From: Stegostoma tigrinum
Taxonomy: Eukaryota
Reading direction: 5' to 3'
Assembly: GCF_030684315.1 (NCBI RefSeq)
Contig: NC_081377.1
Span: 17,608,001-17,672,000, forward strand
Length of the DNA: 64,000 nt
This document shows positions 1,690-55,843 of this stretch, in pieces. How positions within the stretch are numbered: the first letter of the stretch is position 1; every line of letters starts with the position of its first letter. The translations under genes and the position numbers were made by a program. The notes under the pieces are model-generated. The model did no database searches. It was not told the origin of the DNA and saw nothing but the letters and a program-made list of their open reading frames with translations.

Positions 1690-2640
1690 GAACAGCTGAG
1701 AAAGTAGATTGTGCCTGAGTGGAGCATTGTATCGGCGCCGGGGTGGTTCACGATGATGCTAGCAGGGTAATGGCAAATTGGCAATCCCAATAATCTCAAC
1801 CATTGACCTTCTGCCTGACCTATTTCCTGGACTTCTGCCTTCATCCTTCCCCCGCCCCTCCCAGAATCCTTGTCCTCAATTTTCAATCCACTGGCCTCCA
1901 TGTCCGAAGGATCATCCTTCACCATTTCTGGCACCTCCAGCAGGATACCACCTTCAAGCATATCTTCATCTTCCATTCACTGTCAGCATTTTGAAAGAAC
2001 CGTTCCCTCTACGAGACCCTGCTCCACTTTTCCGTCACTCCTGATACTTCCTCATTCCTGCATGGCAACCTTTCCGTGCAGCTGCAGAAGGTGCGACACT
2101 TGCCCATTCACATCCTCCCGCCTCACTAACCAAGGGACAATTCACTTTCCAGGTGAAAACATACTTCACATGTGCATCTTTCCATCTTGTTTATAGCATT
2201 TGCTGCTCGGAATTCAATCTCCCTTACATTAACCTGATAAGACACAGACTGGATGATGGCTTTGCAGAACACCTCTGCTTAATCTGTAATATGACCCTGA
2301 CCTTCCAATTGCTTTCTGTTTCAAGAAACCTCCTTGCTCTTAACCATCATTTCTATCCTGGGCCTGCTACAGTCTTCCAGTAAAGCTCAAGTCAAGCTAG
2401 AAGAACAACATCTCATTTTTACAAAGGCAATATCCAGCCTCTAGGACTTTATAGAAGTGCACAACTATGACCTCTGTCCTCCATTTTCACCATTTTCAAA
2501 GCCATTTGGTTCTGAAGAAGTGACATATTGGACTCGAAGCATAAATCCTGTTACTGTCACCCCAGATGCTGCCAGACCCGCTGAATTTCTCCAGCACCTT
2601 ATTTTTATTTCAGATTCCCAGCATCTGCAGGATTTTACTT
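1690..2640 (+). mobile_element. Old Penelope-like element (Neptune-type), 3' fragment with terminal repeat
   Basis: Remnant CSCRRCDTCPF and FTCASFHLVYSICCSEFNLPYI (Cys linker plus GIY-YIG start). Ends in a degenerate hammerhead core ctgaagaag..gactcgaag at about 2511 and the gatgctg..cagcatc tail. Confidence 0.8.
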
Positions 2641-2837
2641 TTAATTAGCCTGCTGTAACAACTGGCAAAAAGTGCAGTGAGAAATCTCTTTTCCATTGCA
2701 AATTGAGGGTCTAATGAAGTGATAATTGGACCCCGCTGGCAACTCAAAGGGATACAATAGCAGAATGTTCAGTCGTTCCACTGTACCCATGTCTACCTGC
2801 ATTCCCCTTCAGAAAGAACCATGAAATTTTTAAATAG

Positions 2838-2936
2838 TTTCGGAAGAAGGGCCTAGGCCCGATACGTCAGCTTTCCTGCTCCTCTGAAGCTGCTTGGCCT
2901 GCTGTGTTCATCCAGCTCTACACCTTGTTATCTAAG
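2838..2936 (+). mobile_element. Short PLE terminal-repeat insertion (family A)
   Basis: gaagaagggcctaggcccgatacgtcagc..caccttgttatc; TSD atttttaaatag at 2826-2837 and 2937-2948. Confidence 0.85.
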
Positions 2937-3107
2937 ATTTTTAAATAGCCTTTTTTTCTACATATTCCTCCTGACTCCATAAAAATAACTTAAGTGCTGT
3001 CTTCCCTCAATGTACATCAGCTCAAGCTAACATCACCAACACCCCTCAAAGGACCCAGGACTCTGCTGGCAGTGCATTCCCAAAGCCAAGGGTGGGAAAG
3101 ATGCTTT

Positions 3108-3282
3108 AGGAGAGCAAGCTAACGTTTCGAGTCTAGGTGACTGTTCATCAGAACCAAGGCCAGCTGTGATGAAGAGTCATCTCGACATTAGCTTCCTGTC
3201 TCTCCATGGATGCTGCCTGACTCACTCTGATCACTAGCATTTGTTATTTTCAGCACAGATTCCAGCATGTACAGTAATTTGG
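3108..3282. mobile_element. Short inverted PLE terminal-repeat insertion (family C)
   Basis: Minus-strand hammerhead core CTGATGA..GACTC GAAACGTT at 3121-3151, followed by a + strand degenerate copy with gatgctg..ccagcat tail. Confidence 0.7.
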
Positions 3283-3527
3283 TACTTTAGGATGCTAATT
3301 TCTTGTCTGTACCTCACCTGTTAGATCTTAATGGCATCAAAGCCACAGAATGCAAATATCCAGCCAGCACCTTAACATATCAGATGCTACAAGGTTGCAA
3401 ATAGGGAGCTCAGAAAATGCTCAAAGAAAACCTATTCCAGATTCAGACAAATTATTGTTCATTTATTTCATCTGATTCCAAGTTCCAAAGTAGATTTTTC
3501 CATTTGTTACTTTTCTATTTTTTATGG

Positions 3528-3881: not shown

Positions 3882-4189
3882 TTGTATCCTGGAATCTGTC
3901 GCTGAGACATATGGAAACACTTGGTCAGCATTTTCATCATTTGGATATGTGTACACGTTCAGCCCTGAAAGATGGGATTTATCTCTGCTTAGAAACCAGT
4001 CCATAGGTTTTTATTTTCATTTACAAGAACTTTGAATGGGTCATGGAGCTCTCACTCATTCCAGTAACATGGCACTTGTTTTGAGATTAAATACATTAAA
4101 AACAGATCAGCTGTTAGAGTAACATAGTGACCTGTGAAAATTGTGCCCCCCCCCACCAAAATCCCAAAAAGGCATCCAATGCAAGCCCT

Positions 4190-4285
4190 CGAGATAACAC
4201 AGTGTGGAGCTGGAGGAACACAGCAGGCCAGGCAGCATCAGAGGAGCAGGAAAGTTGATGTTTCAGGTCAGGACTCTTCTTCAGA
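4190..4285 (-). mobile_element. Short PLE terminal-repeat insertion (family A)
   Basis: gagataacacagtgtggagctggaggaacacagcaggcc..ctcttcttcaga; hammerhead core on minus strand at 4257-4284. Confidence 0.85.
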
Positions 4286-5528
4286 TAATTTGGTTTCATC
4301 AGGCTGTATTCCTGGTTCTTGAAGTCTCCCCATAACCGCCAACCACTTCCCATACCCATCCCACCATCACCTGAGTGAGGAAGTGATTTGAGTGCTCCCT
4401 GGGAATCAGAGGAAGTGGAAGGGAAAATGGAAAATATTGTTTTAATTTATAATTTGCAAGTATTGTTTTGATAAATAATTGGCAAGCACAGGTGTAATGA
4501 ATTGAGGCATATGAAAAATTAAGGATTTGTTTGACCAAATGTCTGGGGATCAATGGTTGCATGAGATTGACTAATACTCAGGTATTTACAGGTATTGGAA
4601 GTCCTCTATATGTGTGCAGCTATACACATCACAGCAAGCAGTCAATGAAAAACAGCAAATTCAAACTTCCTGCTGAAAATCCCAGTATCTGAATTCACAA
4701 CATAGAGTGTTCAAACATTCTGCATGTATGCCAAAATTATAGTAACAGTTTTTTAAAATATTGAGTAGGTTGAAGATTAGCTGATAAATATGGTGGCTGC
4801 ATGATGGTTTATGCATAGTATAAATTACAAACAGCAACTTAATGATAAAAGCGAAAGTAAACATATTTTAGTATGTGAATTTATGTTAATGGGAATGAAT
4901 GCCAATGAGGTTCTGCAGTTCAAGATTGACGGTAGTTACAGTTCAGTGAGATTATATTCATACAGTTCTTAGATGAAAATGGCCATGAAGTAGGAAATGT
5001 ATTATTAATCTGCACTACCACAGGATCTAGATGCCATGAAGGGAGATAACTCAACATACATTAATGTTCCTTAGTCATTTTTATTCACCATTTATATGCC
5101 TTAACAATTGCTCTCTGAAGCATCTTATTAGCAGACTTGAATTCAACTTAGCAACTTCTCCCCCCCACCCCAAGCTGTGAACAAAGAAGGGAGTTCTTTA
5201 TTTTCACTCTCTATATGTCATTCCCCATGGCCTGATGGTTTTACTATGGGGTATTGAAGGAAATAAGGCCCAAGAATTACCCCAGTCACTGAAGTGACCC
5301 CCTGTGCTATTTTTACCAAATCCGAACACTTTTTTTTGAGATAAAGGTACAACTCAGTTTGGGCATGAGTTTGCTTGATTACTGTTGAAGGACCATGAAC
5401 ACATCTAAAACGAGAACTTCACTCCACTAACCTGTATGACCCAGTAACCTACGTGACAGACAAGGAAGAGGAAACAGAATAAAACTCCCTCAATATCCAT
5501 CTGTTCACTGAGTGCTCATGCAGTGTAT

Positions 5529-6653: not shown

Positions 6654-6684
6654 AATCATCAGGTTAGCAAACAGCTCTAATCAT

Positions 6685-7157: not shown

Positions 7158-7315
7158 AGAACAAAAACAGAAGTTGCGAAAAGCTGGGCAGGTATGTCAG
7201 CATCTGTGATGAAAATGTCAGAGTTTACATTTCAGGTCCAGTGACCTTGAGCTTTTCCAGAAACTTCTGATCTTGTTCCTGATTTGCAGCATCTGCAGTT
7301 CTTTTGGTTTTTATT
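7158..7315. mobile_element. Short inverted PLE terminal-repeat insertion (family B)
   Basis: Inverted arms aacaaaaacagaagttgc / gaaacttctgatcttgttc, tail cagcatctgcagttc; TSD tatgcaaaatt at 7147-7157 and 7316-7326. Confidence 0.75.
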
Positions 7316-8260: not shown

Positions 8261-8847
8261 AGTTTGTAAGTGTAGAGTTCAATTCAAAATGATGGCTTAA
8301 CTCTAAACAGAAATAACCTGTGGTAGATTAGGATAGGTAATTGTGAGATTCAAAGTATTAATACACATTTTATAACAAGCATATATTTCTTCGTGACACA
8401 AAACCCCAACAGGAAATGTGATCCATCAGTGGCGAACAAGAAAGGTTAAGGGAGGTTTAGAAAATTGCCAAAACATGTGGTAAGACTGAAGGTTGAGTAT
8501 TTCAGAATTTAGTAAAGGAGAACCAAGAATCTTATAAATGAACAGAAAATAGAATATTAAACTAAACTAGTGGAAAACATGAAGCTCATTATAAAAGTTT
8601 CTATTTGAATGGAAAAACATACAAAAATAACAAGATTAGCACATACAAATGTGGTACCATTACAGGAAGAAAGAAGGTACTTATGAGGGATACTAAGGAA
8701 ATGGCAGAGATAGTAAACAAATACTTTGACCCTTTCTGGAGGCAGATGCAAAAGGATTACCAAAATTACTGGAGAACCAAGGGACTGATGAGACTGAGGA
8801 ACTGAAAGACATCAGCATTTGTGAAACAAAGCGATACTGGAGAAATG

Positions 8848-8972
8848 TGATAATGGGAACTGCAGATGCTGGAGAATCCAAGATAATAAAGTGTGAGGCT
8901 GGATGAACACAGCAGGCCAAGCAGCATCTCAGGAGCACAAAAGCTGACGTTTCGGGCCTAGACCCTTCATCA
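8848..8972 (-). mobile_element. Short PLE terminal-repeat insertion with intact minimal hammerhead
   Basis: Minus strand CTGATGA AGGGTCTAGGCCC GAAACGTC (8946-8973); 15-bp TSD gatactggagaaatg at 8833-8847 and 8973-8987. Confidence 0.9.
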
Positions 8973-9161
8973 GATACTGGAGAAATGAATGGGATTGAAT
9001 GTTGGTAATTCCCCTAAACCTGATGATCTACATCCCAGAGCATTAAAAGAGACGGCTGATGAGATAGTGAATTCATAAGTAGTTACCTTCCAAACTTCCA
9101 CTGATTTTGGAATGATTCTTTTAGATCAGAAAATAGCAAATGTAATCCTGCTATAGAAGAA

Positions 9162-9387: not shown

Positions 9388-9607
9388 GAGATAGTAGGAA
9401 CTGCAGATCCTGGAGAATCTGAAATAACAAGGTGTAGAGCTGGATGAACACAGCAGTTCAAGCAGCATCATAGGAGCAGGAAAGCTGACGTTTCGGGCCT
9501 AGACCCTTCATCAGAAGAAGGATCTAGGCCCGAAATGTCAGCTTTCCTGCTCCTATGATGCTGCTTGGCCTGCTGTGTTCATCTAGCCGTACACCATGTT
9601 ATCTCTT
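9388..9607. mobile_element. Palindromic PLE terminal-repeat insertion (family A)
   Basis: Two head-to-head arms meeting at cccttcatcag/aagaaggatctaggcccgaaatgtc; TSD taactagcagtttag at 9373-9387 and 9608-9622. Confidence 0.9.
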
Positions 9608-15041: not shown

Positions 15042-16111
15042 TGTAACTGAATTCGCATAGCTGATTTTGTACCTTTTTACTTTTTCAAGTGCTCCATTTT
15101 AAAAATAAGCAGTAGCAAAGCTTTACTCTTTAACAAAATTAAAGGTTAGTTTGTACACTGTTGATGAAAGATATTAAGTAAAAAGTGATACACATTTCAG
15201 CCAAAATACAGTTACAAAGATTAAACATAAGTACAGGTAAAATATACTTATAAAGACTGAAGTAAGAGCAGACTCAGTTATTGTTGAAGAGAGATAGGTA
15301 GGAACTGCCGATACTGGAGAATCTGAGATTGTGAAGCTGGATGAATACAGCAGGCCATGCAGCATCAGCGGAGCAGGAAAGTTTGACGTTTCGGCTCGAG
15401 ACCCTTCTTCAGAAAGATTCTTGTTGTTGAAGACTTGTCTTGTTTGAAGAACTTTTCTTCCTGAGGGGAAGCAGATGAAACCTTGAAGCCAGAATTCAGC
15501 AGCATGATTGATCTATTAATTGAATAGTTGGAGTTTGTTTCCACAGGTGGAAAAAGCAGAACAGATTTTGAGAGAGTGATTTGAAGGATCTAATGTTGTG
15601 ACCTTCAGTATCCTTGTTCAGCTTAGCAGTCCATTAGCTCGTTTATGCTTCTCTCATCTCTCTCTCGGAAACCCTTTTCCTCTGATGGTGTTTTTCAGAG
15701 TTCCTGGAGTTCTGTTCAAAATAGGCTCTCACAGCCTGCCTTATCCAGATCAAAACTTCAGATGGCTGTTATCCTAAAACTTTGATGAATGATTGTCCCA
15801 CAAACCAAGGTCAGGTTTGCTGGAATTTCCTGTGTTGTTCTTCCAGTCTCCTGTTCTCTCAGAAGCCTTGAATTCTCACAACTTTAAAAGGACCCATTGT
15901 GTGTACAAGGGTGAGTTGAATTCCAAATGTCACCCTTTGTGTTACTTACTGAGATAGTATGTCTCCTGGGCTTTGTTTAGCTGTAATGAATCAACAAGAG
16001 CAGTTAATTGACTTCTGGGAGCCACCTTCTAAGATGCTATGCAAGTTTTAAAAGCCAATTTTAGTTTTCTTTTCAGAACTTGAAGTAATGTAATAACACA
16101 ATTGTGTTACA
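15042..16111. repeat. Possible solo LTR-like repeat
   Basis: TGTAAC..GTTACA inverted termini; no TSD confirmed. Confidence 0.25.
15291..15415 (-). mobile_element. Short PLE terminal-repeat insertion (family A)
   Basis: gtaggaactgccgatactggagaatc..; intact minus-strand core CTGAAGAAGGGTCTCGAGCCGAAACGTC at 15385-15412; imperfect flank duplication ttgttgaaga. Confidence 0.85.
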
Positions 16112-16114
16112 GGT

Positions 16115-17140
16115 GTGTAGAAGGTTACAAATACATAGGCAATATTAAACTGAAAGTAGACCAAATAAATTGACACTTCACCATGAAGGAAGAAATGTCT
16201 AAGGCATTGGACATTAGGAGGGGAGCAGGTGAAATGGTACTGTTTCTGTTCTTGTACAGGAAGTTGAAATGGAAAACATTGTTGGGGACTATTGAACAAT
16301 AAGCCTGAGTGTTGTGCAGTGAATGGTACCTTCAGAATGCTGAAAGAGGAAGGGAAAGGAAGATGAATTGGTAACAGTGTCACACTGGCAACGGCAGAAA
16401 TATTGAAGTATCGTTCATTGACTATGAAGACTAATATGATGGAAGCTGAAGGTAAGGGAAATTCTATGCATCCTAATGTGATTTTGGGCTAGAGGAGAAG
16501 GAATGAGAGCAGAACTGCAGGTAATAGAATGAGCACAATCACAGGAAAAACAGTCAACATGGGTGGGAATTCTTCATTGAAGCAAAAGAAAGCTCTGTTA
16601 AACTTATTTCTTACGTTATATGTCCACATATCAAAAAATATTTTATTATCTGTAAAACATTTAGAGTTGTTCTGCCAGTGGTGAAGGACAGAAGAGAGAT
16701 GTAAGTATTTCTCTTTGTATCTTTTCATGGATGGAAGGTAAAAGGTGACATTGTCAGAATAGATGCAACAGACGCAGAAACTGAAATAACAAAGTGTGAA
16801 GCTGGATGAACACAGCAGCCAAGCAGCATTTCAGGAGCACAAAAGCTGACATTTCGGGCCTAGACCCTTCATCAGCGAGGGGGATGGGGAGAGGGAACTG
16901 AAATAAATAGGGAGAGAGGGGGAGGCGGACCGAAGATGGATAGAGGAGAAGATAGGTGGAGAGGAGAGTATGGGTGGGGAGGTGGGGAGGGCATAGATCA
17001 GTCCAGGGAGGACGGACAGGTCAAGAAACTGAGATGTTGGAACAGAATCCGGATAAGGAACAGATTGGAAGAAAGTGTAATCAAGGAGCTTTTCTGCTCA
17101 AAGTCCACTGCCTCAATCAGTGATGTTAGGTTCAGGCTGC
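16115..17140 (-). mobile_element. Old PLE (Neptune-type) internal fragment, interrupted by younger repeats
   Basis: Minus ORF 16048-16383 resembles the degenerate Cys-linker/FTC region of the PLE at 1690-2640. Confidence 0.45.
16785..17023 (-). mobile_element. PLE 3' UTR plus terminal repeat (family A)
   Basis: Matches 51640-51910; hammerhead core at 16848-16875; TSD agaaactga at 16776-16784 and 17024-17032. Confidence 0.88.
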
Positions 17141-19582: not shown

Positions 19583-19697
19583 CCTAGGCCGGAAACATCA
19601 GTCTTCCTGCTCTTCTGATGCTGCTTGGCCAGCTGTGTTCATCCAGCTCCACACTTTGTTATCTCAGATTCTCCAGCATCTGCAGTTCCTATTATCT
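19583..19697 (+). mobile_element. Short PLE terminal-repeat insertion nested in Gypsy
   Basis: cctaggccggaaacatcagtc..ctcagattctccagcatctgcagttcctattatc. Confidence 0.88.
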
Positions 19698-20176
19698 CTG
19701 ATGGAGGGCATGTGTCTTGAGCAAACCTGACAGCTGAAATACCTTGTCAGCAGAAATACAAATGCATTGTGAAAACAAATTTAAAAATCTGAGACAACAT
19801 GTCAGATTCTCTTTATCGTATAGGATCACATGGTAAATGAAACAACCCGTACCATCAAAATAGTGTTCTAAATGTTGTAAACTCTTGGGACTCTCCTGCG
19901 AAATGGACAAACTTGTATCCATGCTTCACATCTAGTTTGAAAAATAATTTTGCTCCTGAAAATTAAGCATTTAGTTCTTCCAGCATCAGTATTTTGGGTG
20001 GGCACCTTTTAAGTGGAAGATGAAAGCTCCTTCAGTTAACACTTTTTATATGAGGATAATGACAGAGTTACAACAATCTGTAAGTTGGATGAGTTTCTAA
20101 ATTTTACCATTTTTGTTCAATCGCATCGCTGTCTGCTCGAAGCATCCCTTGAATGTGCAGACTGCACTTCCTTAGA

Positions 20177-20497: not shown

Positions 20498-22999
20498 AGG
20501 ATCAATCAATGGGATTGCATTAACTTTCACATTGACAATTGCCCAATTTCTGTCTGTACAGTCATTTGAGACTGATTAGATTGGGTCATTTGTGGTCTGT
20601 TCTGCCACCATGAGTGTGGTTTGAATGTGAAACGTTGTGATTATATTGAGATCTGTGTGTAATGGTAATCCTGTCGGTGCTCAACCTTTGTCTATCTACC
20701 AAGTAGAAATTGTCAGGTGTGATTCTACCAGAGAACACAGTTGTTGATCTGTTTTACTCTGTGAGACCCTTTTGTAAGCTGTGCTGGAGTGCACTATATG
20801 GTGAGATATGCAATTTCCATGATGCGTTGTGGTAATAGGTTAGTTTTAGCCTTTGTGTTGATTTTAGCTTTTTGAGTGCACTTTCCTGTCCTTTCAAGAT
20901 GTATGGTAATAATAGTTGTAAAAGTTTCTCATTGCCTTACACTGTTGGCATGGTGTATGAAGTCAACAATATGGAAAGGTTCTTGGTCACTTTCTGAAAT
21001 TTGCCTTTCACTTTATTGTCTCTGAACCACCTTGATGTCTATGCATTTGTGTGCCTTCGTAATGTTTCCTTTGCCAGTGTCATAACATCATCTCAGTTAC
21101 CTGTGTTTTGTTCTGGGGTTTAGCTTAGCCTTTAAATCACATCTTTAAATCACAAATTTAAATCACATGACAGGCAACATTTCTTACTGATTTGTTGGTT
21201 TGGTATGCACACAAAGCATGTAATTACTGTTGATTTTATGCTTGCATCCGTCCTCAAGTACTGCACCAATAGTATGACCCTTTGTCTTGCCTGAAATACC
21301 GTTGCAAAATGTTTTGTCGGTGTGGAAGCAATGACGAACTCACTGAGCCTCTTTGAAAATCATGCCGTTTGCTGTGACATCCCAAGACAAACTGGCCAAT
21401 AGACCCCTGCTATCTGTGTATGAATTGGGGTCTGTCAATGCTAAAGTTAAATTTTACCTTGAGCTAGTCATCAATAAACTTTTAGATCTTTTATGGATCT
21501 TCCTGATCAAACATGAAAGCAATTATATTAACATGTCAACAGCAAGCAAGATTTTTATAGCTCTTTTTCTTGGGAACAGCTTTTACTTGGTATGTAATGT
21601 CGGACCATATTCACTAGTTGAACAGTTAGGTTCAGTCATGATGCCATGGATGCCTAATCCAAATGAGGTTTCCGTTAACCAAGATTCCACCTTAAAAACA
21701 TTGCACTTTACTTCTTTCAGTCATGTGTCCTGACTTTGTCAGTTTACATTTAAAATACCATTTTTTTAATTAACAAGACTTTACAGCTATTGTTTTGAAT
21801 GACTTGCCATTAATAGAGCATTCTAACCTTTCAGACGCCTGTACGAGACTAGACTTGCAATTTGTCTCTGCTCAAAAGTGCTGGTCAGCCTTTATGAATA
21901 ATACCACCTCTGCAGTTTGTTTTGTCTTTAAGGAGCTTACATTTTAATCAAAAACAAAGCTGCTGTATTTTTTTAGTGGTTAATGCCCGTATAGAAATCT
22001 CTCTAGCTGTCTGTATTCATAGAAAGTAATGTTGCTTAAGGATGAAAAACTCTCCCTCTGTCTGACTTCTCCAGTATCCAAGGCTAGTCACCAGTTGGTC
22101 TTCAATCAGTTTTCCAAATATCCACCACAAAAGTATTAGAACTTTTTACGGATGGCCACTGCTACCATCTTGCTATGTGTTTGCCTTCAAATGGGGCTTT
22201 TACCTGATGTGATCATGCTGGTATTACCTCCCAAATAGGAAGTAGGGGTAGATGTCTTGGCATTGAAGAATCCAACAAACATATGTTACAAGCAGCTATC
22301 ATATACAAACATTACACTCCTCAGAGAAACAATTGTCTGGGCAAACATTAAGCTATTAGGTTATAAAAAAAAATGAACATGCTTCAAGTGATCTCAGGTA
22401 AACAGAATTTGAGACCTTTATTCCCTGAGGTCACATGCTTTTCGACAGTGATGATACCATGAGCATTTCTCTTAAATGCACACTGACCATCATACAACAG
22501 CGGTCATCAATTCACTTGCTTGGCAGGCGATCTTACAGAACATTGAGCAGCCAGAAATCTGAAAATTTCATCATCTGAGAAGGACTTAACATATTGCCAG
22601 CCATTTTCATGTTTATGGTTCATTTTTACTGGCAAATTGCAGACAGGGTCAGTTACAAAGAAAGGAAAGTTATCTTGAAATTCCAGAAAGGAACAATTAT
22701 TGAAACAGGAGGTGATATTCCAGTCAAAGAAATACTCCAAGGCAACACATGGTGTAACCGTGTTCATTTGCAAAATATTAAATTCATAAGAAGCCGTCAA
22801 CATTGCCTTTTAAAGAATTGATTGTGAATTTGTTGGCCCTAGTTGAAATGGTCAGTAAATTATTAAGTCTCTATGTCTGAACTAAGAGGATTGACATTGA
22901 TGAGCTTGATTGAAAATTGTTTTAGTCATGGAAATCTGAAACTTATGCTTAATAGGAAAGATTTAGATGGGGAGAAATGTATGTCTGGTTAGAGATTTC

Positions 23000-23665
23000 A
23001 CAGCTACAGAGATTGAGTATTGAGGTTGGTTGGCTCGCTGAGCTGGTTTGTTGTTTAGAAGACGTTTCATTACTGTGCTGGGTAACATCCTCAGTGCAGC
23101 CTCCGATGAAGCATCGGTGTGTTTTCGGGGTCGAGCTCAATGTGTTTATTAATAGCATGTTTCGTGGCGTGCTTTCATGAAGTCGTGGTTCTCCCTGACC
23201 ATGTGGATTGAGTTGAGTGAGTATTGGTCATGTCTTTTTGTAGCCACTTGGTGTTCATGTACTCTCGTTGTTATTTTCCTTCCTGCTTGTATGATGTAGT
23301 GTTTCTTGCAGTCTCTGCAGGGGATTTTGTAGATGACATTGGTCCTGACCATGGCAGGGAGTGGGCCTTTAGATCGAGTGAGCAGTTGTCGTGGGGTTCA
23401 CGTGGGCTTGTGTGCAACTCTGATGCCCAGTGGTCATAGGAGTCTTGTAGTGAGTTCCAATGTGTTCCTGATGTAGGGTAGCATGATGAGTGTGTCGGGG
23501 CGTGTAGACTCTTTCTGATGCTGTTCGTGTATGCATCTTCTGATCTGACCAGTTCTTTGGATATCCATTGTCCTTGAACACTTGGAAGAGGTAATCTTCT
23601 TCCTCATGGCGTAGTTCTATGTTGTTGCAGTGTGTTGTTGCCCATTTAAATAGTGTTTGAACACA
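23000..23665 (-). mobile_element. Penelope/Poseidon-type PLE 3' fragment
   Basis: GIY-YIG remnant NVIYKIPCRDCKKHYIIQAGRKITTRVHEH (ORF 23149-23352), FKDNGYP motif, hammerhead-like core CTGAGGA TGTTAC..GTAAT GAAACGTC at 23061-23094. Confidence 0.85.
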
Positions 23666-24552: not shown

Positions 24553-25320
24553 AGCACCCTTGATATCTCTCCCTGCCCCAATCAACAGCAGGAGGATGGT
24601 GTTGATTCACAGCAGGCCCCACATTCCAGGTGACTCGTGTCTTTGAAAAGGGTCCCCTCACCCGCATCCTCTGCCACTGGAAACCAGAACATTACCTCAA
24701 AAGTGTTTGGTTTTCAGGCTTCCAGCCATGACTGCTGAGTGAATGATTCAGTAGCAGCAGGAGATGAAGCCTATCCACAACTTTCCCACTCAAGATTTAA
24801 TCAGGGCAGAAATAGGACGACAGCGGGTTCACATTACCAGTTTACCAGGAGATCGAATTGAATCCCACTCATTAAGTATGTATACACAGCCGTCACAGCT
24901 GCATTTCTGATTAATATTCTTGTGCGTTCTGTAAATGTTATATATGGATTCCAAATGGCCAGGTTTGGTTTTGACATTTGATGTCCTTCATTAAATTTTA
25001 TAAAGTTTCCAATGGTTCTGAGTGGTTCCTCAGTGTAATGCAATTCAGTATTGGAACCCAAAAAGGAAAACAGATTAAAATAAAAGAAACTAGTGACTTT
25101 TGACATCTAATGTGTAATGTCAAAAGGGAGCATACAGTTTGCTTTGGGATACACTCTTAGCTTGACGATTTTAGCTGAGCATTTGTGTTTACAAATCATG
25201 ATGAAACTAAGAATATAAATGTGCCAGATGAAAATAGGGGTGATATCCATTCGAGGTAAATGTGGAAAAGGATGTGGTTCCAAAAACAGTTTGCTGAACT
25301 TGCTGGATAAACCATGAACC

Positions 25321-25450
25321 ATCTTAGGAGCACAAAAGCTGACGTTTTGGGCCTAGACCCTCCTAAGATGCTGCTTGGCCTGCTGTGTTCATCCAGCTCT
25401 ACACTTTGTTATCTCGGATTCTCCAGCATCTGCAATTCCTATTATCTCAG
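25321..25450. mobile_element. Short inverted PLE terminal-repeat insertion (family A)
   Basis: Truncated inverted arm tcttaggagcacaaaagctgacg joined to cctaagatgctgcttggcc..tail; imperfect duplication ataaaccat/ataagccat. Confidence 0.82.
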
Positions 25451-25894: not shown

Positions 25895-26475
25895 TAACTT
25901 ATTATTTCATGGATGTTGGTTATTGTTGTCAGGACCAGTTGCCTGTCCTTAATTACCCGTGAACAGAGTGGTTTGCTGAATCATTTCAGAGGACAGTTAA
26001 GAGTTGACTACAGTGCTGCTGATCTGCAATCACATGTAGGCCTGCCAGGTGAGAGTGGCAGATTTCCTTCCTAAAGGACATTAGTTACAACATAAACAAA
26101 ACCAGAGATTGCTGTAAAAACTGAGCAGGTCTGGCAGCATCTGTGGAGAGAAGGTAGAATTAATGTTTCAACTCCAGTGACCCTTCTTAAGAACAAGTCT
26201 ATTCTGAGGAAAGGTCATTGGACCCAAAACGTAAACTCTGCTTTCTCTCTACAAATCCTGCCAGACCTGCTGAGTTTTTCCAGTATATTTTGTTTTTGTT
26301 TCTGGTTCATAACGTCCACAGTTCTTTTGGATTCAGGTTTTTATTACGATGATGATCAGTGATGGTGACCATGAAATTAGCATACTGTTCCAGATATTTT
26401 TTCCATTCAGTTTGTAATTCCACCATGGGGAAGCTTGAACCTGTGTCACTACAGCATTAGCCTTAGCTTGTGAAT
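25895..26475 (-). mobile_element. Elasmobranch SINE (same family as 7925) interrupted by a PLE repeat
   Basis: cacatgtaggcc..ggcagatttccttcctaaaggacattag. Confidence 0.7.
26095..26335. mobile_element. Inverted PLE terminal-repeat insertion (family B)
   Basis: Arms ctgagcaggtctggcagcatctgtggagaga / tctctacaaatcctgccagacctgctgag; degenerate core ctgaggaaaggtcattggacccaaaacgt. Confidence 0.8.
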
Positions 26476-29930: not shown

Positions 29931-30623
29931 GCCATTATCAATCTTAGTATGAAAATAAGATGCTTGCAGGAAAGTCTAACCCACAGTGATTTCTGTTGAA
30001 AAGTGCCTGCAGTAAATTAGCCCACAGTCAGATTGAATATCTGCAATGTGACAGTTGCTGCTGTGATGTTATCAATCAACAGTGATCAATTGAACAAACA
30101 TATTGAGACAATTCAGGCTTCATAACCTAAGCTTTTATTGCCTTTTAGTTTGAATTCCTTTCTGAAGATGTTGTCACAACATCCTGAATGGGCAGAAGCA
30201 GAAGTAGAAATCTAAATTCAGCATTTGGAAACAAATTATTCCTCTTAATGACGCTAAATGAAAATCTAAATGGATGTTTTTCAAGTCAGCTACAATATAA
30301 AGGTGCTTGCATCTGATAAAACAAAGTTGCCTCTAACATTCAGGACATTGTGATATTCTTTTGCATTTATTTTGCTGTGTCTTTTTCATTTGCACTATTT
30401 TTGTTTCACCAACATAATTACAATTGAACGTGCATGCATCTGACATTATAGCATATTTTTATTACTGCACAGAAGTGGCAGCCTAGATCATATGATCAAG
30501 TTACTACCCACAATTGAACCCACAGTCTTCTGATTCAGGGGTAGATCACCAGCAGCTGAGGCAAACCAACAGTGTTTGAAAACCAGAATCTGCCAAACAT
30601 CTTTTGGAGGCACTGGGGTGGAC

Positions 30624-30722
30624 AAAGACAGAAGCCACATGACACCAGATTATAGTCGAACAGATTTATTTGAAATCACAAGCTTTCTAAGCACTGCTCC
30701 TTCGTCAGGACTTCTGACTTAA
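30624..30722 (-). mobile_element. Short PLE-type terminal repeat (family D) with hammerhead core
   Basis: Minus strand CTGACGA AGGAGCAGTGCTTA GAAAGCT at 30681-30708. Confidence 0.6.
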
Positions 30723-34377: not shown

Positions 34378-34478
34378 CGTGAAAACAAAAAATGCTGGAA
34401 ATTGCAGCAAGTCAGTTGGTGTCCATGGAGAGAGAACAAACTATCGTTTGGCTCGAGATGACTCTTCTTCAGAGATGA
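34378..34478 (-). mobile_element. Short PLE terminal-repeat insertion (family C)
   Basis: aaatgctgga..ccatggagagag..gatgactcttcttcag; TSD ttactttgt at 34369-34377 and 34479-34487. Confidence 0.7.
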
Positions 34479-35124: not shown

Positions 35125-35253
35125 AAGATGAAGGGTCTAGACCTGAAACATCAGCCTTCCTGATCCTATGATGCGACTTGGCCTGTTGTGCTCATCCAGC
35201 TCTATACCTTGTTATCTCGGATTCTCCAACAACTGCATTCCTATCATCTCTGA
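35125..35253 (+). mobile_element. Short PLE terminal-repeat insertion (family A)
   Basis: gatgaagggtctagacctgaaacatcagc..gttatctcggattctcc. Confidence 0.85.
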
Positions 35254-43320: not shown

Positions 43321-44514
43321 TATTTTTCTGCCTTTATATTTTTCTGTCAGTTGAACAGAAGACGAAGATCTATTTAGGTAATTTGTTTTTATTCATTTTG
43401 TAATCCAAAATGGTACTGGGTTGTGGTGATAAAACACTTTTCACTGTATTTTCCCAAATACGTGTGACAATAAAATCATTAATTCATTCATTCAAACTCA
43501 GCAGGTTTGGCAGCATCTGTGGAGAGAAAAACAGAGTGTGGAATGATTTTTCTTCAACCTGAAGAAGAGCATTTTCTATTTTTATGCCGTTATTCTTCCC
43601 ACTGCTTTGATACGGATTTATCTGCAAGTCACTGCTCCCAACTGACGTGGACTAAATCATATCTCATTGAAGTAAAGTGAGCCTTTCCCCAGTTTAGAAC
43701 GTTTATTCTTGGCCTTTTTCAGTAACTATTCTAAATTCCATCTGAGATATCCATGATAAGCATTCAGGTCTGTAGGTCTTGAATTGAAGTTTACAGCCCT
43801 GAGTGTTGCAAGATTAATGACCAGATTGAGGTGGAGTAATGATTTTCATGGTAACAAGGCCATCAGTGATGGAGATAGGGGTCTGATACCAACAGAAATG
43901 TTGTAGTGAATGCTGTGCAAAACTTCAGCAGTTTTCTCCAGGCAGGTGCAAAAGGAATTGGTGTTGAGAGTGGATGATGAGTGACAGCAATGCAAGGAAG
44001 CGATCAGACTAGCCTCATCTGTGATTGTCACTGTGGAAGCAGAGAATCCACTTGAGATTAGAGAGGATGGATGTGTTTGTGGATAGTGGAGCTTATCTCG
44101 AGCACAAGCCACAACATAAGGAAGAAAACTAAGATCAATATACTCTTTAATGAAAACAAGCCTCATTGTCTACAACCTAATTGATCCGTTTGAAGAGCTG
44201 TGTGTTGGTGCAGTGAAACTCATGTTGCTGCTTTCTCAATCCTTATCTTTACAAAAATATTGAATGTTACTGTTACCAGACTCCCTGCAGTGTTTTAATG
44301 GTGATCTGCCATGCATAAAGAGTGGGAGAACCTGGTCCCTGCCCTGTGTTTATATCAGTAAGATGATGAGTTTGTTACTCAAAATCAGAAAACAAAAGTG
44401 TAGATACCAGTTTCCGTCTGTTTCTTCCTTGCTTTATCTGACTATCACATGGTACAGCCTTACAGCACATTGCCAATCTGTTAGCACTGAGAGATTGAAC
44501 TTGAATCTTGTTTT

Positions 44515-44850: not shown

Positions 44851-45052
44851 TGTAATAGTAGGAACTGCTGATCTGGAGAATCTGAGATAGCATCAATCAG
44901 GTGGGTAAATGTCCAGAGATGACATGGTGCGAAGCTGGATGAACACAGCAGGCCGAGCAGAAGAAGGGTCTCAACCCGAAAGGTCAAACTTTCCTGCACC
45001 TCTGATGCTGCTTGGCCTGCTGTGTTCATCCAGCTTTGCACTGTGTTATCTC
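44851..45052. mobile_element. Inverted PLE terminal-repeat insertion containing an inverted copy of target DNA
   Basis: TSD tggacatttacc at 44839-44850 and 45053-45064; 44894-44915 is the exact reverse complement of flank 45053-45074. Confidence 0.9.
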
Positions 45053-50375: not shown

Positions 50376-50470
50376 GAGATAACAAGATGTAGAGCTGGAT
50401 GAATACAGCAGGCCAAGGGCATCAGAGGAGCAGGAGTGCTAACATTTTGGACCTAGTCCCTTCTTCAGAA
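50376..50470 (-). mobile_element. Short PLE terminal-repeat insertion (family A)
   Basis: gagataacaagatgtagagctggatgaatacagcagg..cccttcttcaga; duplication gttatag at 50369-50375 and 50481-50487. Confidence 0.85.
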
Positions 50471-51604
50471 AAGCATATAGGTTATAGAATATTTGTGCAG
50501 TTCTTTTCCCCCTGCTCTGTAAGGGCCACATGTTTCTCAGTTACAGTACTCATCCCAGTATTCCTTGGTATGATGAGGAGTTACATTTATCAAGCCCCTT
50601 CCCAGAGATCAGCTGGCGTGAGGTGGAAATGCTGATTGTGTAGGAACATCTTTCAGTTGTAATATTATGCACCATCTTATTAGGAATGTATGGTTAGTTC
50701 ACTCCAGTTCATAGTACAAGCAGCTCACATTGTACTATAGAAAGGAAACTTTGTTTTTGGAAGGCAATGGTTCACGTGGCTCATAAATACACACCCGTAT
50801 CCTCCCGTGTGGGACTGAGGACGATGGAAGTGACATCAACCACCTTTGGAACCAATGAACCACCTGCTACATAAACCAAACCTGCATTGTGTCTTCACAT
50901 GAGTGCTGTATTCTTCACTTGCCTTCGGGTGCATGCACTGTAGTGATATAGGGGAATTGACTTCTAACTCCTAATATTTCTTGCCAGTCAATGGTCACAC
51001 ATCTGAATATTCAGCAAACAGTTCCGGGTTTCTGCTGCCCCAATGACGTGTTTGCAGGTGAAGAAATGATTTTCATGCAAAAGTAGGACTTTCACCTCAT
51101 GATTTAGCCCATTTTCTAGAACAATCCAAACCAAGCCTCATAAACCCGTTTTTCTCCCCCTCAACTTCAAATACATGATGTTAAAGTTAGTGTGGTCAAT
51201 AAAGACTGTGCTTTGAGAATGCTTCAAAAATCATGATATTGAGTTATAACCTCCAGCCAGTTGTGTGTGTAGCTGTTGAACTTGCTGTATTGTCACCTGT
51301 AGCAGAAAACAACAGTAATTGTCTCAGTAATAAGTGGTGAATGCATTGTTGGTGAACCCAGTGATATCTCTTAGGAAAACCTTGAAAATACCCAGATTAG
51401 CAACAATCTGTTTTCATTTACCTTGAGCATGGCACCTATAGTTTGCATCTTGGTGCAGATCAGGTTTATAATTTAACGACTAAAGTGATAATCCTCAGAT
51501 AGGCAGCTACAGACAATGAATCTTAGCTGAAATCAAATTTCTTTTCTTCAAAAATGATAGGTTCTGAGTGATAAGTTCCTTAGAAAACCACAATACATTG
51601 AACA

Positions 51605-54600
51605 GAGACTGTAGGAACTGCAGATGCTGGAGAACCTGTGACAACAAGGTGTTGAGCTGGATGAACACAGCAGGCCAAGCAGCATCAGAGGAGCAGGAAA
51701 GTTGATGTTTCGGGTCTAGACCCTTCTTCAGAAATAGGGGAGAAGAAGGGGATTCTGAAATAAATAGGGAGAGAGGGGGAGACGGATAGAAGATGGATAA
51801 AAGAGAAGGGAGGTGGTCTCAAAGAGGCGGGGATGGAGCCAGTCGAGGTGATTGCAGGTGGGGAGGTAGGGAGGGGATAGGTCGGCCCAGGGAGGACAGA
51901 CAGGTCAAGGGGGCAGGATAAGGCTAGTAGATAGGAGATGGGGATGGGGCTTGAGGTGGGAGGAGGGAATAGGTGGGAGGAAGGACAGGTTAGGGAGGTC
52001 GGGATGAGCTGGGTTACTTTTGGAATGCGGTCGTGGGAGGGGAAATTTTGAAGCTTGTGAAGTCTACATTGATACCATTGGGCTGCAGGGCCCCTAAGCG
52101 AAATGTGAGGTGCTATTCCTGCAACCTTTGGGTGGCACTGCAGGAGGCCCAGGATGGACATGTCGTCTGAGTTGTGGGAGGGGGAAGTTGAAATGGTTCG
52201 CGACTGGGAGGTGCATTTGTTTGTTGCGAACCGAGCGTAGGTGTTCCACAAAGTGGCCCCCAAACCTCCACTTGGTTTACCCGATACAGAGGAGGCCACA
52301 TCAGGAACAGCGGATACAGTATACCACATTAGCAGATGTGCAGGTGAACATCTGTTTGATGTGCAAGGTCTTCTTGTGGCCTGGGATGGGGGTGAGGGAG
52401 GTGCTGTAGTGGCAGGTGTAGCACTTCCTGCGGTTGAAGGGAAAAGTACTGGGTGTGGTGGGGAGTGTGGAGTTGACAAGGGAGTCACGGAGATAGTGGT
52501 CCTTCCGGAAGGCAGATAAGGGTGGGGATGGAAAAATGGCTTTGGTGGTGGGGTCAGATTGCAGATGGCAGAAGTGCCGGAGGATGATGTGTTCGATTTG
52601 TATTGCGTTGTTAGGGTAGTACATGAGGATGAGGGGAATTCTGTTTTGGTTCTTATTGCGTGTAGGGGGTGTGAGGGATGAGTTGTGGGAAATGTGGGAA
52701 ACACAGTCGAGGGCGTTTTCAACCACTGTGGCGGGGAGGTTGTGGTCCTTGAAAAACAAGGACATGTGGGATGTCTGGGAGTGAAATCCCTCTTTCCAAG
52801 AGTAGATGTAGCGGTGGTGAAGGAATTGGGAATGGGGATGGCATTTTTGCAGAAAGGTCTGTGGGAGGAGGTGTATTCTCGGTAGCAGTGGGAGTGTGAC
52901 ATCGGTGAAGTGGATATTGGTTTCCAGGTGATTGCCAGAGATGGAAACAGAGAGGTGCAGGAAGGAGAGAGAGGTATCAGAGATGGTCCAGGTGAACTTA
53001 AGATTGGGATGGAAGATGTTGGTGAAGTGGATGAACTGTTTGATCTCCAAACACCAGCTCTCTGACACCTCCTCCTACCACCCCCTTGATCATGACCCAA
53101 ACCCTGACCACCAAAACATCATCTCCCAAACCATCCAAAACCTCATCACCTCAGGTGACCTCCCACCCACAGCCTCCAACCTCATCATTCCCTAATCCTG
53201 CACCACCCGTATCTACCTCCTTCCCAAAATCCACAAACCTGACTGCCCTGGTCAACCCATTGTCTCCACCTGCTCCTGCCCCACTGAACTCATCTCCACT
53301 TATCTCAACTCCATTTTCTCGCCTTGGTCCAGGAGCACCCCACCTATGTCCGTGACACCACCCACACCCTCCATCTCCTCCAAAACTTCTGATTCCTTGG
53401 TCCCCAACAACTCAACTTTACCATGGACGGCCAGTCACTATACACTTGCATTCCCCATGCAGATGGCCTAAAGGCCCTCCACTTCTTCCTGTCCTGCAGG
53501 CCCGACCAGCCCCCTTCTACCGACACCCTCATCCGCTTAGCTGAACTCATCCTCACCCCTAACAACTTCTCCTTCAATTCCTCACACTTCCTACAGACAA
53601 AGGGAGTGGCCATGGGTACCCGCATGGGCCCAAACTATGCCTGCCTTTTTGTAGGTTGTGCAGAGCAATCCCTCTTCTGAAGCTACACTAGCCCTACCCC
53701 CCAGCAGTGACTGTATCAGCGCCGCCTCATGGTCCTATGAGGAGCTCAAACAGTTCATTTACTTCACCAACACCTTCCACTCCAACCTTAAATTCACCTG
53801 GACCATCTCTAACACCGCCCTCACCTTCCTGGACCCCTCTGTCTCCATCTCAGGCAACTACCTGGAAACTGATATCCACTTCACGCCTACCGACTCCCAC
53901 AGCTACCTAGAATATACCTCCTCCCACCCACCCTCCTGCAAAAATGCCATCCACCATTCCCAATTCCTTCGCCTCTGCTGCATCTACTCCTGAAATGAGA
54001 CATCCCAAATGTCATCGTTTTTCAAGGACTGCAATGTCTCCCCCTCAGTGGTTGAAAAAGCCCTCAATTGCATCTCACACATTTCCCAGAACTCAACCCT
54101 GACACCCCCTAAGCAATAACAACCAAAACAGAATCCATCACATCCTCACGTACCACCCCACCAACCTCCGGATCCAATGTATCATCCTCTGGCTCTACCG
54201 CCACCTGCAATCCGACCCCACTACCAAAGACATTTTTCCCTCCCCACCCTTATCAGCTTTCTGGAGGGACCACTCTCCCTGTGACTCCCTCATCCAGTCC
54301 ACACTCCCCACCACACCCAGCACTTTTCCCTGCAACTGCAGGAAGTGCTACACCTGCCCCTACACCTCCCCCCCTTACCCCCATCCCAGGCCCTAAGAAG
54401 ACCTTCCACAAAACGGATGTTCACCTGCACATCTGTCAATGTGGTATACTGTATCTGCTGTTCACGATGTGGCCTCATCTACATCGGGGAAACCAAGCGG
54501 AGTCTTGGAGACTGCTTTGTGTAGATGAGCAGAGAGATCTCGGTGTCCATGTACACAGATCCTTGAAAGTTGCCACCCAGGTTGACAGGGCTGTTAAGAA

Positions 54601-55843
54601 GGCATACAGTGTTTTAGCTTTTATTAATAGAGGGATCGAGTTCCGGAACCAAGAGGTTATGGTGAAGCTGTACAAAACTCTGGTGCGGCCGCAATTGGAG
54701 TATTGTGTACAGTTCTGGTCACCGCATTATAAGAAGGATGTGGAAGCTTTGGAAAGGGTGCAGAGGAGATTTACTAGGATGTTGCCTAGTATGGAGGGAA
54801 GGTCTTACGAGGAAAGGCTGAGGGACTTGAGGCTGTTTTCATTAGAGAGAAGAAGGTTGAGAGGTGACTTAATTGAAACATATAAAATAATCAGAGGGTT
54901 AGATAGGGTGGATAGGGAGAGCCTTTTTCCTAAGATGGTGACGGCGAGCACGGGGGGGGGCATAGCTTTAAACTGAGGGGTGAAAGATATAGGACTGATG
55001 TCAGAGGTAGTTTCTTCACTCAGAGAGTAGTAAGGGAATGGAACGCTTTGCCTGCAACGGTAGTAGATTCGCTAACTTTAGGTACATTTAAGTCGTCATT
55101 GGATAATCATATGGACGTACATGGAATAGTGTAGGTTAGATGGGCTTGAGATCGGTATGACAGGTCGGCACAACATCGAGGGCCGAAGGGCCTGTACTGT
55201 GCTGTAATGTTCTATGTTCTATGTCCCTACGCCCGGTTTGCAACAAACGACTGCACCTCCCATTAGTGAACCATTTCAACTCCCCCTCTCACTCCTCAGA
55301 CGATTTTTCCATCCCAGGCCTCCTGCAGTGCCACAACGATGCCACCCGAAGGTTGCAGAAACAGCAATTCATATTCCGGTTGGCAACCCTGCAGCCCAAT
55401 GGTATCAATGTAGACTTCACAAGTTTCAAAATCTCCCCTCCCCCTACTGCATCCCAAAACTAGCCCAGATCTTCCATGCCTCCCCAACCTGTCCTTCCTC
55501 CACCCATTCCCTCCTCCCACCTCAAGCTCCATCCCCAGTTCCTACCTACCAGCCTTATCCCGCGTTCCCCCCTTGACCACCCTGGACTGACCTATCCCAC
55601 CCCTCACTCCCCAACTACACTCACCTTTACTGGCTCCACCCCTGCCCCCTTGACATGTCTGTCTCACCTCCACCTGTCTTCTCCTTTTTCCACCTTCTCT
55701 CCATCTCCCCCTCTCTCCCTATTTATTTCAGAATCCCCTTCTCCTCCCCTATTTCTGAAGAAGGGCCTAGACCCGAAACGTCGGCTTTTCTGCTACTCTG
55801 ATACTGCTTGGCCTGCTGTTTACATCCAGCTGGACACCTTGTT
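51605..55843. mobile_element. Neptune-type Penelope-like element, single inverted insertion (minus arm 51605-53045, plus arm 53046-55843)
   Basis: RT motifs LFTMDGQSLYT-like and QTKGVAMGTRMGPNYACLF (ORF 53423-53680), NLKFTW..FLD, Cys linker RKCYTC, FTCTSANVVYCIRC and YIGETKR (GIY-YIG); hammerhead cores at both outer ends; TSD aatacattgaaca at 51592-51604 and 55844-55856. Confidence 0.92.
54519..55224 (+). mobile_element. Young 5'-truncated CR1 LINE nested in the PLE endonuclease region
   Basis: RDLGVHVHRSLK..LYKTLVRPQLEYCVQFWSPH; (ATGTTCT)n tail; near-identical to 57297-58002. Confidence 0.95.

What the first reader, a model, noticed from the sequence alone, without database searches (positions are those of the whole stretch)
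2505..55843. Swarm of hammerhead-ribozyme-bearing PLE terminal repeats moving as tiny TSD-flanked units
About 20 insertions of 90-240 bp consist essentially of a Penelope-like terminal repeat: CUGANGA, an extra base, stem II, GAAAC-GUC (minimal type I hammerhead with palindromic stem III), then a structured tail. At least five sequence families differ in stem II: A GGGUCUAGGCCC, B GGUCAUUGGACC, C AGUCACCUAGACU, D GGAGCAGUGCU, E GUUAC..GUAAU. Many sit between clear 7-15 bp TSDs (2826, 7147, 8833, 9373, 16776, 29438, 34369). Hammerheads in PLE repeats are established. Their density here suggests either extreme 5' truncation or ribozyme-released, non-autonomous retrozyme-like SINEs in sharks (inference).
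Basis: partly seen in the sequence, partly recalled or inferred. Interest (0 to 1): 0.7.

Follow-up and report, generated by a model that had tools for sequence, protein, structure and literature searches.

The report
Penelope run-off stubs marking transcript start
These 90-130-base repeats are real, very abundant end pieces of ordinary protein-coding Penelope-type jumping genes; their front ends pile up about 30 bases behind a TATA-like box and only rarely at the ribozyme's predicted cut, so most are likely dead-end copies of the first letters of the element's RNA rather than self-released mini-elements.

Summary
In detail: 21 insertions, five hammerhead families, and all seven claimed TSDs. 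The density is genome-average (16 family-A arms against 13.6 expected). The units are the hammerhead-plus-tail module of autonomous PLEs (RT + GIY-YIG, frames to 988 aa); the window itself holds a 4.25-kb TSD-flanked copy. In 1.39 Mb of sampled genome, 68 of 248 family-A copies start at -8..+2 of CUGA (6 expected); 10 start at the predicted cut (3.8 expected). No short-only subfamily exists and stubs are not tandem. Long copies of A, B and D carry a TATA-like box 29-33 nt upstream of the pile-up, with an initiator-like motif on it. Best reading (inferred, 0.7): reverse transcription primes at two sites near the RNA's 5' end and runs off at the transcription start. A minor class joined at the cut site exists (710 against 5,929 loci). 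No RNA start or cleavage was shown. This scan reported the same reading before on other DNA.

The parts
1857..2420 (+). Decayed RT/GIY-YIG fragments of a second PLE family (44-61% identity to the family-A protein)
   Evidence: tblastn
2505..2632 (+). B/C-like hammerhead module with tail; 3' end of the longer PLE remnant above, not a free stub
   Evidence: no TSD found
2838..2935 (+). Family A stub, starts -3, no tail; 12-bp TSD 2826-2837 / 2937-2948
3112..3284 (.). Family C head-to-head pair; 8-bp flanking repeat 3104-3111 / 3285-3292 (weak)
4191..4287 (-). Family A (old subfamily) stub, no tail, no TSD found
7162..7315 (.). Family B head-to-head pair; 15-bp TSD 7147-7161 / 7316-7330
8847..8974 (-). 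Family A1 stub with tail, intact core; 15-bp TSD 8833-8847 / 8973-8987
9388..9607 (.). Family A head-to-head pair, one arm tailed; 15-bp TSD 9373-9387 / 9608-9622
15290..15420 (-). Family A stub with tail, starts -4; 13-bp TSD (1 mismatch) 15278-15290 / 15421-15433
16785..17023 (-). Family A copy with about 150 nt of 3' UTR, including the TATA-like box (16903-16909); 9-bp TSD 16776-16784 / 17024-17032
19584..19702 (+). Family A stub starting +12, with tail; no TSD found
22985..23111 (-). Family E copy (Penelope/Poseidon-type parent), starts near -17 or further upstream
25312..25448 (.). Family A head-to-head pair, arms start +7 and +38
26094..26329 (.). Family B head-to-head pair, one arm tailed
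29452..29611 (.). Family B head-to-head pair; 14-bp TSD (1 mismatch) 29438-29451 / 29612-29625
30596..30714 (-). Family D stub
34378..34478 (-). Family C stub; 9-bp TSD 34369-34377 / 34479-34487
35127..35252 (+). Family A stub with tail; no TSD found
43494..43580 (-). Decayed family B fragment
44851..45052 (.). Family A rearranged head-to-head pair with a detached tail piece; 12-bp TSD 44839-44850 / 45053-45064
50376..50476 (-). Family A stub, no tail; 7-bp flanking repeat (weak)
51603..53048 (-). Minus arm of a long inverted family-A insertion: decayed RT thumb/GIY-YIG, 3' UTR with TATA-like box (51760-51766), hammerhead module with tail
53051..55844 (+). Plus arm of the same insertion: decayed RT to GIY-YIG, interrupted by a LINE piece (about 54520-55230), 3' UTR with TATA-like box (55720-55726), hammerhead module from 55755 without tail; whole insertion in a 13-bp TSD 51592-51604 / 55844-55856

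Best explanation
The tiny units are individually inserted copies of the hammerhead-plus-tail module of autonomous Penelope-like retrotransposons, and most are likely run-off cDNAs that copy only the first 95-130 bases of the element's own RNA. Shown: the same module closes RT/GIY-YIG elements and also precedes their ORF; 3' ends fall at two sites (+89..94 and +124..130); 5' ends pile up at -4 to -7; a TATA-like box lies 29-33 nt upstream in long copies. Inferred: Pol II starts at the pile-up, so the hammerhead is the 5' tip of the transcript; the RT primes on nicked target DNA at either of the two internal sites close to that 5' end, as the anole PLE does in vitro, and stops when the template ends. 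One such cDNA gives a solo stub; two, one from each site, give the head-to-head pair with one tail. The stubs lose the upstream box and the downstream ORF-start region, so they are probably dead on arrival. The template is mostly uncut RNA; a minority appears to be cut at the hammerhead.
For: Parent elements: 206,627 candidates for the window's RT fragment and open frames to 988 aa, with RVT_1 and GIY-YIG matches; module 97-98% identical to window 8846-8973 lies about 230 nt behind the stop and again upstream of the ORF, ATG near +167. Breakpoints: 68 of 248 start at -8..+2, hazard 0.047/nt against 0.003-0.004 in the +13..+25 and +31..+60 bins and 0.001-0.003 upstream; holds for young copies (37 of 156) and for copies not head-to-head (28 of 157). 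Family B 48 of 121, D 6 of 10 in the same bin. Genome-wide 5,929 head-to-head joins at the front edge; read by eye, 28 of the 50 listed loci have an arm starting exactly at -4. TATWWAW occurs once in 300 nt upstream, at -34 in 39 of 42 A1 long copies and at -34/-35 in A2 and A3; TATAAA at -33 in a B copy and -37 to -40 in 3 of 4 long D copies, whose stubs start near -7. These spacings and the motifs at the pile-up fit the published TATA, Inr and TCT positions. Head-to-head pairs: 48 of 51 have one tailed and one tail-less arm. TSDs of 10-20 bp in 21 of 83 solo short copies, 0% in controls; 3' junction microhomology 1.4 nt against 0.33 random. In vitro precedent: two internal RT start sites, both target strands extended, product shortens with the template's 5' end, and sequence downstream of the start sites is required (PMC11167929).
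Against: No RNA 5' end was observed. The family-A box (TATTTAT) does not match the strict TATAWR consensus, only 1 of 7 long B copies shows a perfect TATAAA and the scan pattern itself hit none at that place, and initiator motifs are short and easy to match in pyrimidine-rich DNA. An untemplated G before the predicted +1, expected from a cap, is only weakly enriched (10 of 23, p 0.076). Family E fits poorly: a box at -46/-48 predicts starts at -16/-17, but only 4 of 55 start there while 11 start at -39..-57, and 4 of 28 random-sample copies align only from -2..0. Of 30 loci with the ORF start, 15 have a module that reaches well upstream of -4 (read by eye), which needs read-through or a template jump. 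In A, B and D the pile-up also roughly coincides with the ribozyme's 5' edge.
Confidence: 0.7

Rival explanations
1. The 5' pile-up is set by structure, not by transcription start: the folded or protein-bound hammerhead domain protects RNA from 5' exonucleases, or a hairpin at the cDNA end limits trimming or triggers joining.
For: Pile-ups lie at or near the start of stem I in A, B and D. The lowest-energy fold of an A copy is a hairpin whose base is CUGA paired with the GUC region (-11.4 against -3.6 kcal/mol for the open core).
Against: An RT moving 3' to 5' would meet that hairpin at +29, not -4. The edge tracks the TATA-like box (A1 box -34, starts -4; A2 box -35, starts -5/-6; D box -37 to -40, starts to -7). 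None of 55 young E copies starts at -15..+7 although E has an intact core.
Confidence: 0.13
2. One reading: ribozyme-released, non-autonomous retrozyme-like SINEs with their own short masters account for the swarm.
For: 10 of 248 A copies start at +26..+30 (3.8 expected, p 0.006). 710 loci are joined head-to-head near the cut site, 39 of the 50 listed exactly on it, against 4 of 50 on the neighbouring palindrome (read by eye). One tandem array of three 440-nt units in 139 loci (L173).
Against: Front-edge joins outnumber cut-site joins about 8 to 1 (the patterns differ slightly in subfamily range). The cut site lies on a 4-base palindrome that favours joining by itself. All four A clusters of 3 or more copies hold long and short copies; smallest allele p 0.016 over 124 positions. 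Only 9 same-strand neighbour pairs within 500 nt among 295 units. B shows no excess at its cut site over the stretch just upstream (0.020 against 0.022/nt). Family A has a 2-bp stem I.
Confidence: 0.06
3. Same run-off chemistry, but the template RNA comes mainly from short internally deleted derivatives (box + module + ORF start joined to a 3' end, 230-900 nt) mobilised in trans, not from full-length elements.
For: 21 of 30 loci that carry the ORF-start region leave the reference within about 510 nt, most by joining a 3' fragment; arrays such as L173 and L125 keep box, module and ORF start.
Against: That sample was drawn with a query from such a derivative, so it is biased; two attempts at an unbiased query returned nothing. 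Stubs carry no sequence that tells the sources apart.
Confidence: 0.08
4. Ordinary random 5' truncation of PLE insertions.
For: 89 of 259 copies extend 60 nt or more upstream and a background of scattered starts exists; heavy 5' truncation is typical of PLEs (PMC8557442).
Against: 68 starts in an 11-nt bin against 2.2 or 6.2 expected from the flanks, repeated in B and D.
Confidence: 0.03

Closest known systems
Endonuclease-positive PLE insertions, Neptune/Nematis-type linker (PMC8557442, passages; PMC3846280, passages)
   Same: RT + GIY-YIG in one ORF, CX4CxxC linker, pLTR from partial tandems, adjacent inverted copy, 30-40-bp tail on one end, TSDs; a TATA box plus Inr-like motif was already noted in one rotifer pLTR.
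   Different: Here about 4 in 10 copies start in a 20-nt zone at the hammerhead's front edge; the passages read do not describe such a fixed 5' end or tie it to the promoter.
Minimal hammerheads of metazoan PLEs (PMC4209133, parts 1-2 of 4)
   Same: CUGANGA, one extra base, G-C opening stem II, palindromic stem III, many sequence families, mostly single motifs or opposite-strand pairs 'probably related to truncated PLEs'.
   Different: Family A has only a 2-bp stem I (as in D. virilis Penelope) rather than 4-5 bp; that paper gives no breakpoint map.
Poseidon element of Anolis, PAc (PMC11167929, parts 1-2 of 4 and passages)
   Same: Two internal RT start sites that define the tail, both target strands extended, uncut RNA as main template.
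   Different: There the ORF begins inside the hammerhead; here it begins about 165 nt downstream. Priming was non-homologous in vitro; here 3' junctions show 0-5 nt of microhomology.
Metazoan non-LTR retrozymes (PMC7229834, passages; bioRxiv 10.64898/2026.07.22.740005, parts 1-3 of 5)
   Same: Type I hammerhead, pLTR origin, many 'monomer' homologues dispersed over chromosomes.
   Different: Retrozymes are head-to-tail arrays of 150-450 nt units; the stubs are solo or head-to-head, bounded by start site and RT priming sites, not by the cut.
Minus-strand strong-stop DNA of retroviruses and LTR elements (recalled, no call)
   Same: Works like it: priming near the RNA's 5' end gives a short run-off cDNA.
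   Different: Primed by nicked chromosomal DNA, not tRNA, and integrated as such; strand transfer is not shown.

Membership tests
EN+ Penelope-like element (family A parent) | Single ORF with RT and C-terminal GIY-YIG | tested here: met
   Frames of 785-988 aa; RVT_1 E 3e-7, GIY-YIG E 0.002, the latter below Pfam's cut-off
EN+ Penelope-like element (family A parent) | pLTR formed by partial tandem; hammerhead inside it | tested here: met
   Module behind the stop codon and ahead of the ORF start
EN+ Penelope-like element (family A parent) | Adjacent inverted copy and 30-40-bp tail on one end | tested here: met
   48 of 51 head-to-head pairs have one tailed arm
Neptune/Nematis clades | CX2-5CxxC motif between RT and endonuclease | tested here: met
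   Present in the A frames (definition); not seen in the 260-aa E frame, which points to Penelope/Poseidon for E
Neptune/Nematis clades | Placement in an RT tree with named references | not tested
   No reference PLE proteins were on hand
PLE parent for families B, C, D | RT/GIY-YIG coding sequence upstream of long copies | tested here: inconclusive
   B: 3 of 66 copies have it within 900 nt; D: 0 of 7 and no coding frame recognised in 30 more loci; C: no direct link
Minimal type I hammerhead | CUGANGA + extra base + stem II + GAAA + palindromic stem III + NUH | tested here: met
   125 hits against 2 in control, 78 of 131 still palindromic; family table
Minimal type I hammerhead | Stem I of 4-5 bp | tested here: inconclusive
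   B and D up to 4 bp, E 3 bp, A 2 bp
Minimal type I hammerhead | Self-cleavage as dimer or with protein help | not testable with these tools
   Only indirect: excess of joins at the predicted cut
Non-LTR retrozyme | Head-to-tail array of two or more hammerhead units | tested here: not met
   9 same-strand neighbour pairs within 500 nt among 295 A units, one true array
Non-LTR retrozyme | Unit bounded by the cleavage site | tested here: not met
   10 of 248 start at +26..+30; 68 at -8..+2
Non-LTR retrozyme | Unit-length linear and circular RNA | not testable with these tools
   Only assembled contigs were offered
SINE | Own master lineages distinct from the partner element | tested here: not met
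   No short-only cluster of 3 or more copies, no private allele
SINE | Pol III head or internal promoter kept in each copy | tested here: inconclusive
   ARAGORN finds no tRNA gene (a weak test); the candidate Pol II box lies outside the stubs; internal elements not assayed

The most novel reading that the evidence does not exclude
PLEs copy themselves retrovirus-fashion: the RT starts by default near the 5' end of the RNA, makes a 95-130-nt strong-stop cDNA, and then transfers to the RNA's 3' end, where hammerhead cleavage in the downstream repeat leaves a 32-nt terminal redundancy (-4 to +27). The pLTR would be rebuilt by that jump, the ribozyme's job would be to define the redundancy, and the hundreds of thousands of stubs would be failed transfers. 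Modules starting at -5 and -1 that are joined directly to ORF sequence (L135, L150) show that jumps from this point occur.
Probability: 0.2. Interest if true: 0.75.

Novelty: new variant of a known kind. Interest (0 to 1): 0.43.

Why it matters
The elements are of a known kind. What is useful is that their fossil ends appear to record both where PLE reverse transcription starts and where the RNA starts. That gives base-level, testable predictions for an unsettled question: what the PLE template looks like and what the minimal hammerhead does. It also warns that most of the roughly one million hammerhead-bearing arms estimated here (extrapolated) are by-products, not retrozymes or SINEs, which bears on counts of retrozyme 'monomers'.

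Tried and rejected
Rfam: no hammerhead family matched; the best hit (mir-3923, below its gathering score) is the palindrome at 9472-9554. Folding of five monomers gave no unusual stability (z -0.15 to 0.79). Pfam on three decayed window PLE frames found nothing; identity came from tblastn and intact relatives. RNA: no RNA holder listed, only contigs with small shares; laying four such runs showed loose ends with unlike flanks at -1 and +130..132 of the module, the same boundaries, but contigs cannot show an RNA start, strand or level, and no GT-AG joint appeared among the 15 of 17 joints shown. A splice-acceptor reading of the pyrimidine tract and AG at -22 was dropped because starts do not cluster there. 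A tail-to-CUGA circle was dropped: the bases after the tail are simply the element's continuation. Apparent 4-kb tandems in L116 and L122 were separate insertions. Whether both arms of a pair come from one RNA is unresolved (mismatch at diagnostic sites 0.127 to the partner, 0.194 to matched others, 39 pairs). Cap-derived G: 10 of 23, not significant. DNA searches of the genome for the ORF-start region and for family E came back empty because common words are skipped; one search added nothing. One of 140 sampled loci was all N and was left out; 47 of 295 A hits were dropped before the hazard count (identity under 0.85, 3' end before +80, or under 340 nt of upstream sequence). The paper on dimeric cleavage of PLE hammerheads (Lunse 2017, recalled) is not held. 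No supplements were opened; those of PMC11167929 (Fig. S2) and of the bioRxiv paper may show 5' ends of short copies.


Full report
Positions are given with the C of CUGANGA as 0; the predicted cut in family A falls between +27 and +28. The genome is 3.2 Gb.

Observation. Self-comparison and direct reading find 21 insertions of the described type in the window. A strict minimal-hammerhead descriptor gives 6 hits in the window and 125 in 1.39 Mb of evenly spaced genome samples, against 0 and 2 in Markov controls. One family-A core pattern of 29 letters has 100,590 exact matches genome-wide and 0 for the reversed control. Extrapolated arm numbers are about 680,000 (A), 300,000 (B), 106,000 (E), 23,000 (D) and 12,000 (C); the window's 16 A arms match the 13.6 expected, so the swarm is the genome's normal state.

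What the units belong to. Two of the window's A modules close a 4.25-kb inverted insertion (51603-55844) that carries decayed RT and endonuclease sequence inside a 13-bp TSD. Searching with that fragment gave 206,627 candidates and frames up to 988 aa. Fetched copies show RT, a CX4CxxC linker and GIY-YIG, with the module 97-98% identical to window 8846-8973 about 230 nt behind the stop. The linker marks Neptune/Nematis (PMC8557442, passages). In tandem copies the module continues into the ORF, with the first ATG near +167. Family B has RT/endonuclease sequence upstream in 3 of 66 copies; family E ends a GIY-YIG frame without the linker; parents of C and D were not found. The 2505 unit trails another PLE remnant at 1857-2420.

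3' ends. Family A ends cluster at +89..94 and +124..130; B and E also show two clusters. This is the PLE tail, which in the anole element lies between two internal RT start sites (PMC11167929, parts 1-2 of 4). Of 51 head-to-head pairs, 48 have exactly one tailed arm. TSD-bounded solos show 1.4 nt mean microhomology at the 3' junction against 0.33 at random (n 21).

5' ends. Among 248 sampled A copies, 68 start at -8..+2 and 28 at +3..+12; the stop rate is 0.047 per nt at the peak, 0.003-0.004 in the +13..+25 and +31..+60 bins and 0.001-0.003 upstream. The peak persists in young copies (37 of 156) and in copies that are not head-to-head (28 of 157). B (48 of 121) and D (6 of 10) behave alike. 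At the cut site A has 10 starts against 3.8 expected. Genome-wide, exact patterns count 5,929 head-to-head joins at the front edge and 710 near the cut. Read by eye, 28 of 50 listed front-edge loci have an arm starting exactly at -4; 39 of 50 listed cut-side loci are centred on the cut-site palindrome and 4 on the adjacent one. So the bulk keeps the whole core, and a minority may derive from cut RNA.

No short masters. Clustering 232 copies gives four subfamilies of 8 or more copies (divergence 5-10%), each with long and short members (79/53, 15/39, 6/17, 3/5); the smallest allele difference has p 0.016 over 124 positions. The eight leftover clusters have one or two copies. The share of short copies rises with age, which I did not explain. 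Stubs are not tandem: 9 same-strand neighbour pairs within 500 nt among 295 units, including one real array of three 440-nt units (L173).

Why -4. Long copies carry an AT-rich box 29-33 nt upstream of the pile-up. In A1 TATWWAW occurs once in 300 nt, at -34 in 39 of 42 copies; in A2 and A3 at -34/-35; TATAAA stands at -33 in one B copy with weaker variants in the others, and at -37 to -40 in 3 of 4 long D copies, whose stubs reach -7. The bases at the pile-up match the TCT motif (A1, A2) or the Inr (A3, B, D) and the spacing matches the published -32..-28 (PMC5580651, passages). A TATA plus Inr-like pair was noted in a rotifer pLTR (PMC3846280, passages), whereas D. virilis Penelope uses an internal TATA-less promoter (PMC2377424, passages). 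Against: the A box is not a strict TATAWR; cap-G is weak (10 of 23); family E gives 0 of 55 starts at its ribozyme edge, 4 at the predicted -16/-17 and 11 around its box.

Mechanism. Shown: parentage for A (and, less fully, B and E), two 3' sites, sharp 5' edge, tail asymmetry, TSDs, no short lineage. Inferred: the RNA starts at the edge; the RT primes internally near that end and runs off, as PAc products shorten with the template's 5' end in vitro; single events give solos and paired events give palindromes; stubs lack the box and the downstream region PAc needs, so they should not spread further. Long copies arise from priming in a downstream repeat of read-through RNA or by a template jump; L135 and L150 show modules starting at -5 and -1 joined straight to ORF sequence. 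The family-A ribozyme has a 2-bp stem I and an inactive hairpin 7.8 kcal/mol below the open core, in line with low or protein-assisted activity (PMC4209133, parts 1-2 of 4). An antisense self-priming origin of head-to-head palindromes was proposed for rotifer PLEs and is not excluded for the pairs.

Known and new. Solo and opposite-strand minimal hammerheads from truncated PLEs are in print, as are pLTR-derived retrozymes and their monomers (bioRxiv 10.64898/2026.07.22.740005, parts 1-3 of 5; PMC7229834, passages). Seven searches on this subject and the texts read showed no account of a fixed 5' end at the transcription start; subscription papers, Repbase entries and supplements were not seen. 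I logged the run-off reading and found the boxes, before seeing earlier notes; those notes reach the same reading on other DNA and are not independent support. Notes on cut-site joins prompted.

Verdict. A real, ordinary component of this genome: stubs of autonomous PLEs, not a new retrozyme or SINE system. The fixed ends are an informative fossil record of the PLE template. Interest 0.43.

Noticed in passing
L173:7014-8434; L125/L132: Tandem arrays of 430-450-nt units (3' UTR with box + module + ORF start), with an inverted copy: retrozyme-like derivatives of family A that keep all predicted cis elements.
   Followed up: partly
L123-L152, about +266 to +510 of the element: 21 of 30 copies with the ORF start leave the reference early, 8 of them at +266..271; may be a third end or only the bias of the query.
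   Followed up: partly
family E loci L243-L272, -39 to -57: 11 of 55 young E copies start around the TATA-like box, several as head-to-head pairs; unexplained.
   Followed up: partly
modules of A, B, C: The tails share a CAGCATCTGCAG-like motif that is complementary to a GATGCTG motif near +45; possible conserved helix around the first RT start site. Not tested for covariation.
   Followed up: no
window 9388-9607, 26094-26329: Head-to-head pairs form about 90-bp near-perfect hairpins; one scores 69 bits on an Rfam miRNA model (below threshold). Possible small-RNA source.
   Followed up: no
window 23666-24549: Array of mixed 22- and 28-nt repeats, about 880 bp, with long open frames.
   Followed up: no
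window 54520-55230, 57035-57998, 61789-62335: LINE RT pieces (RVT_1 in 56996-57640); the first interrupts the PLE endonuclease region and is 94-95% identical to the second.
   Followed up: no
window 3534-3884, 6679-7034, 14061-14406, 20181-20494, 41616-41908: Five copies of a 300-350-bp SINE-sized repeat unrelated to the hammerhead units.
   Followed up: no
family A subfamilies: The share of long copies falls with age (79 of 134 in the youngest, 15 of 56 and 6 of 23 in older ones).
   Followed up: no
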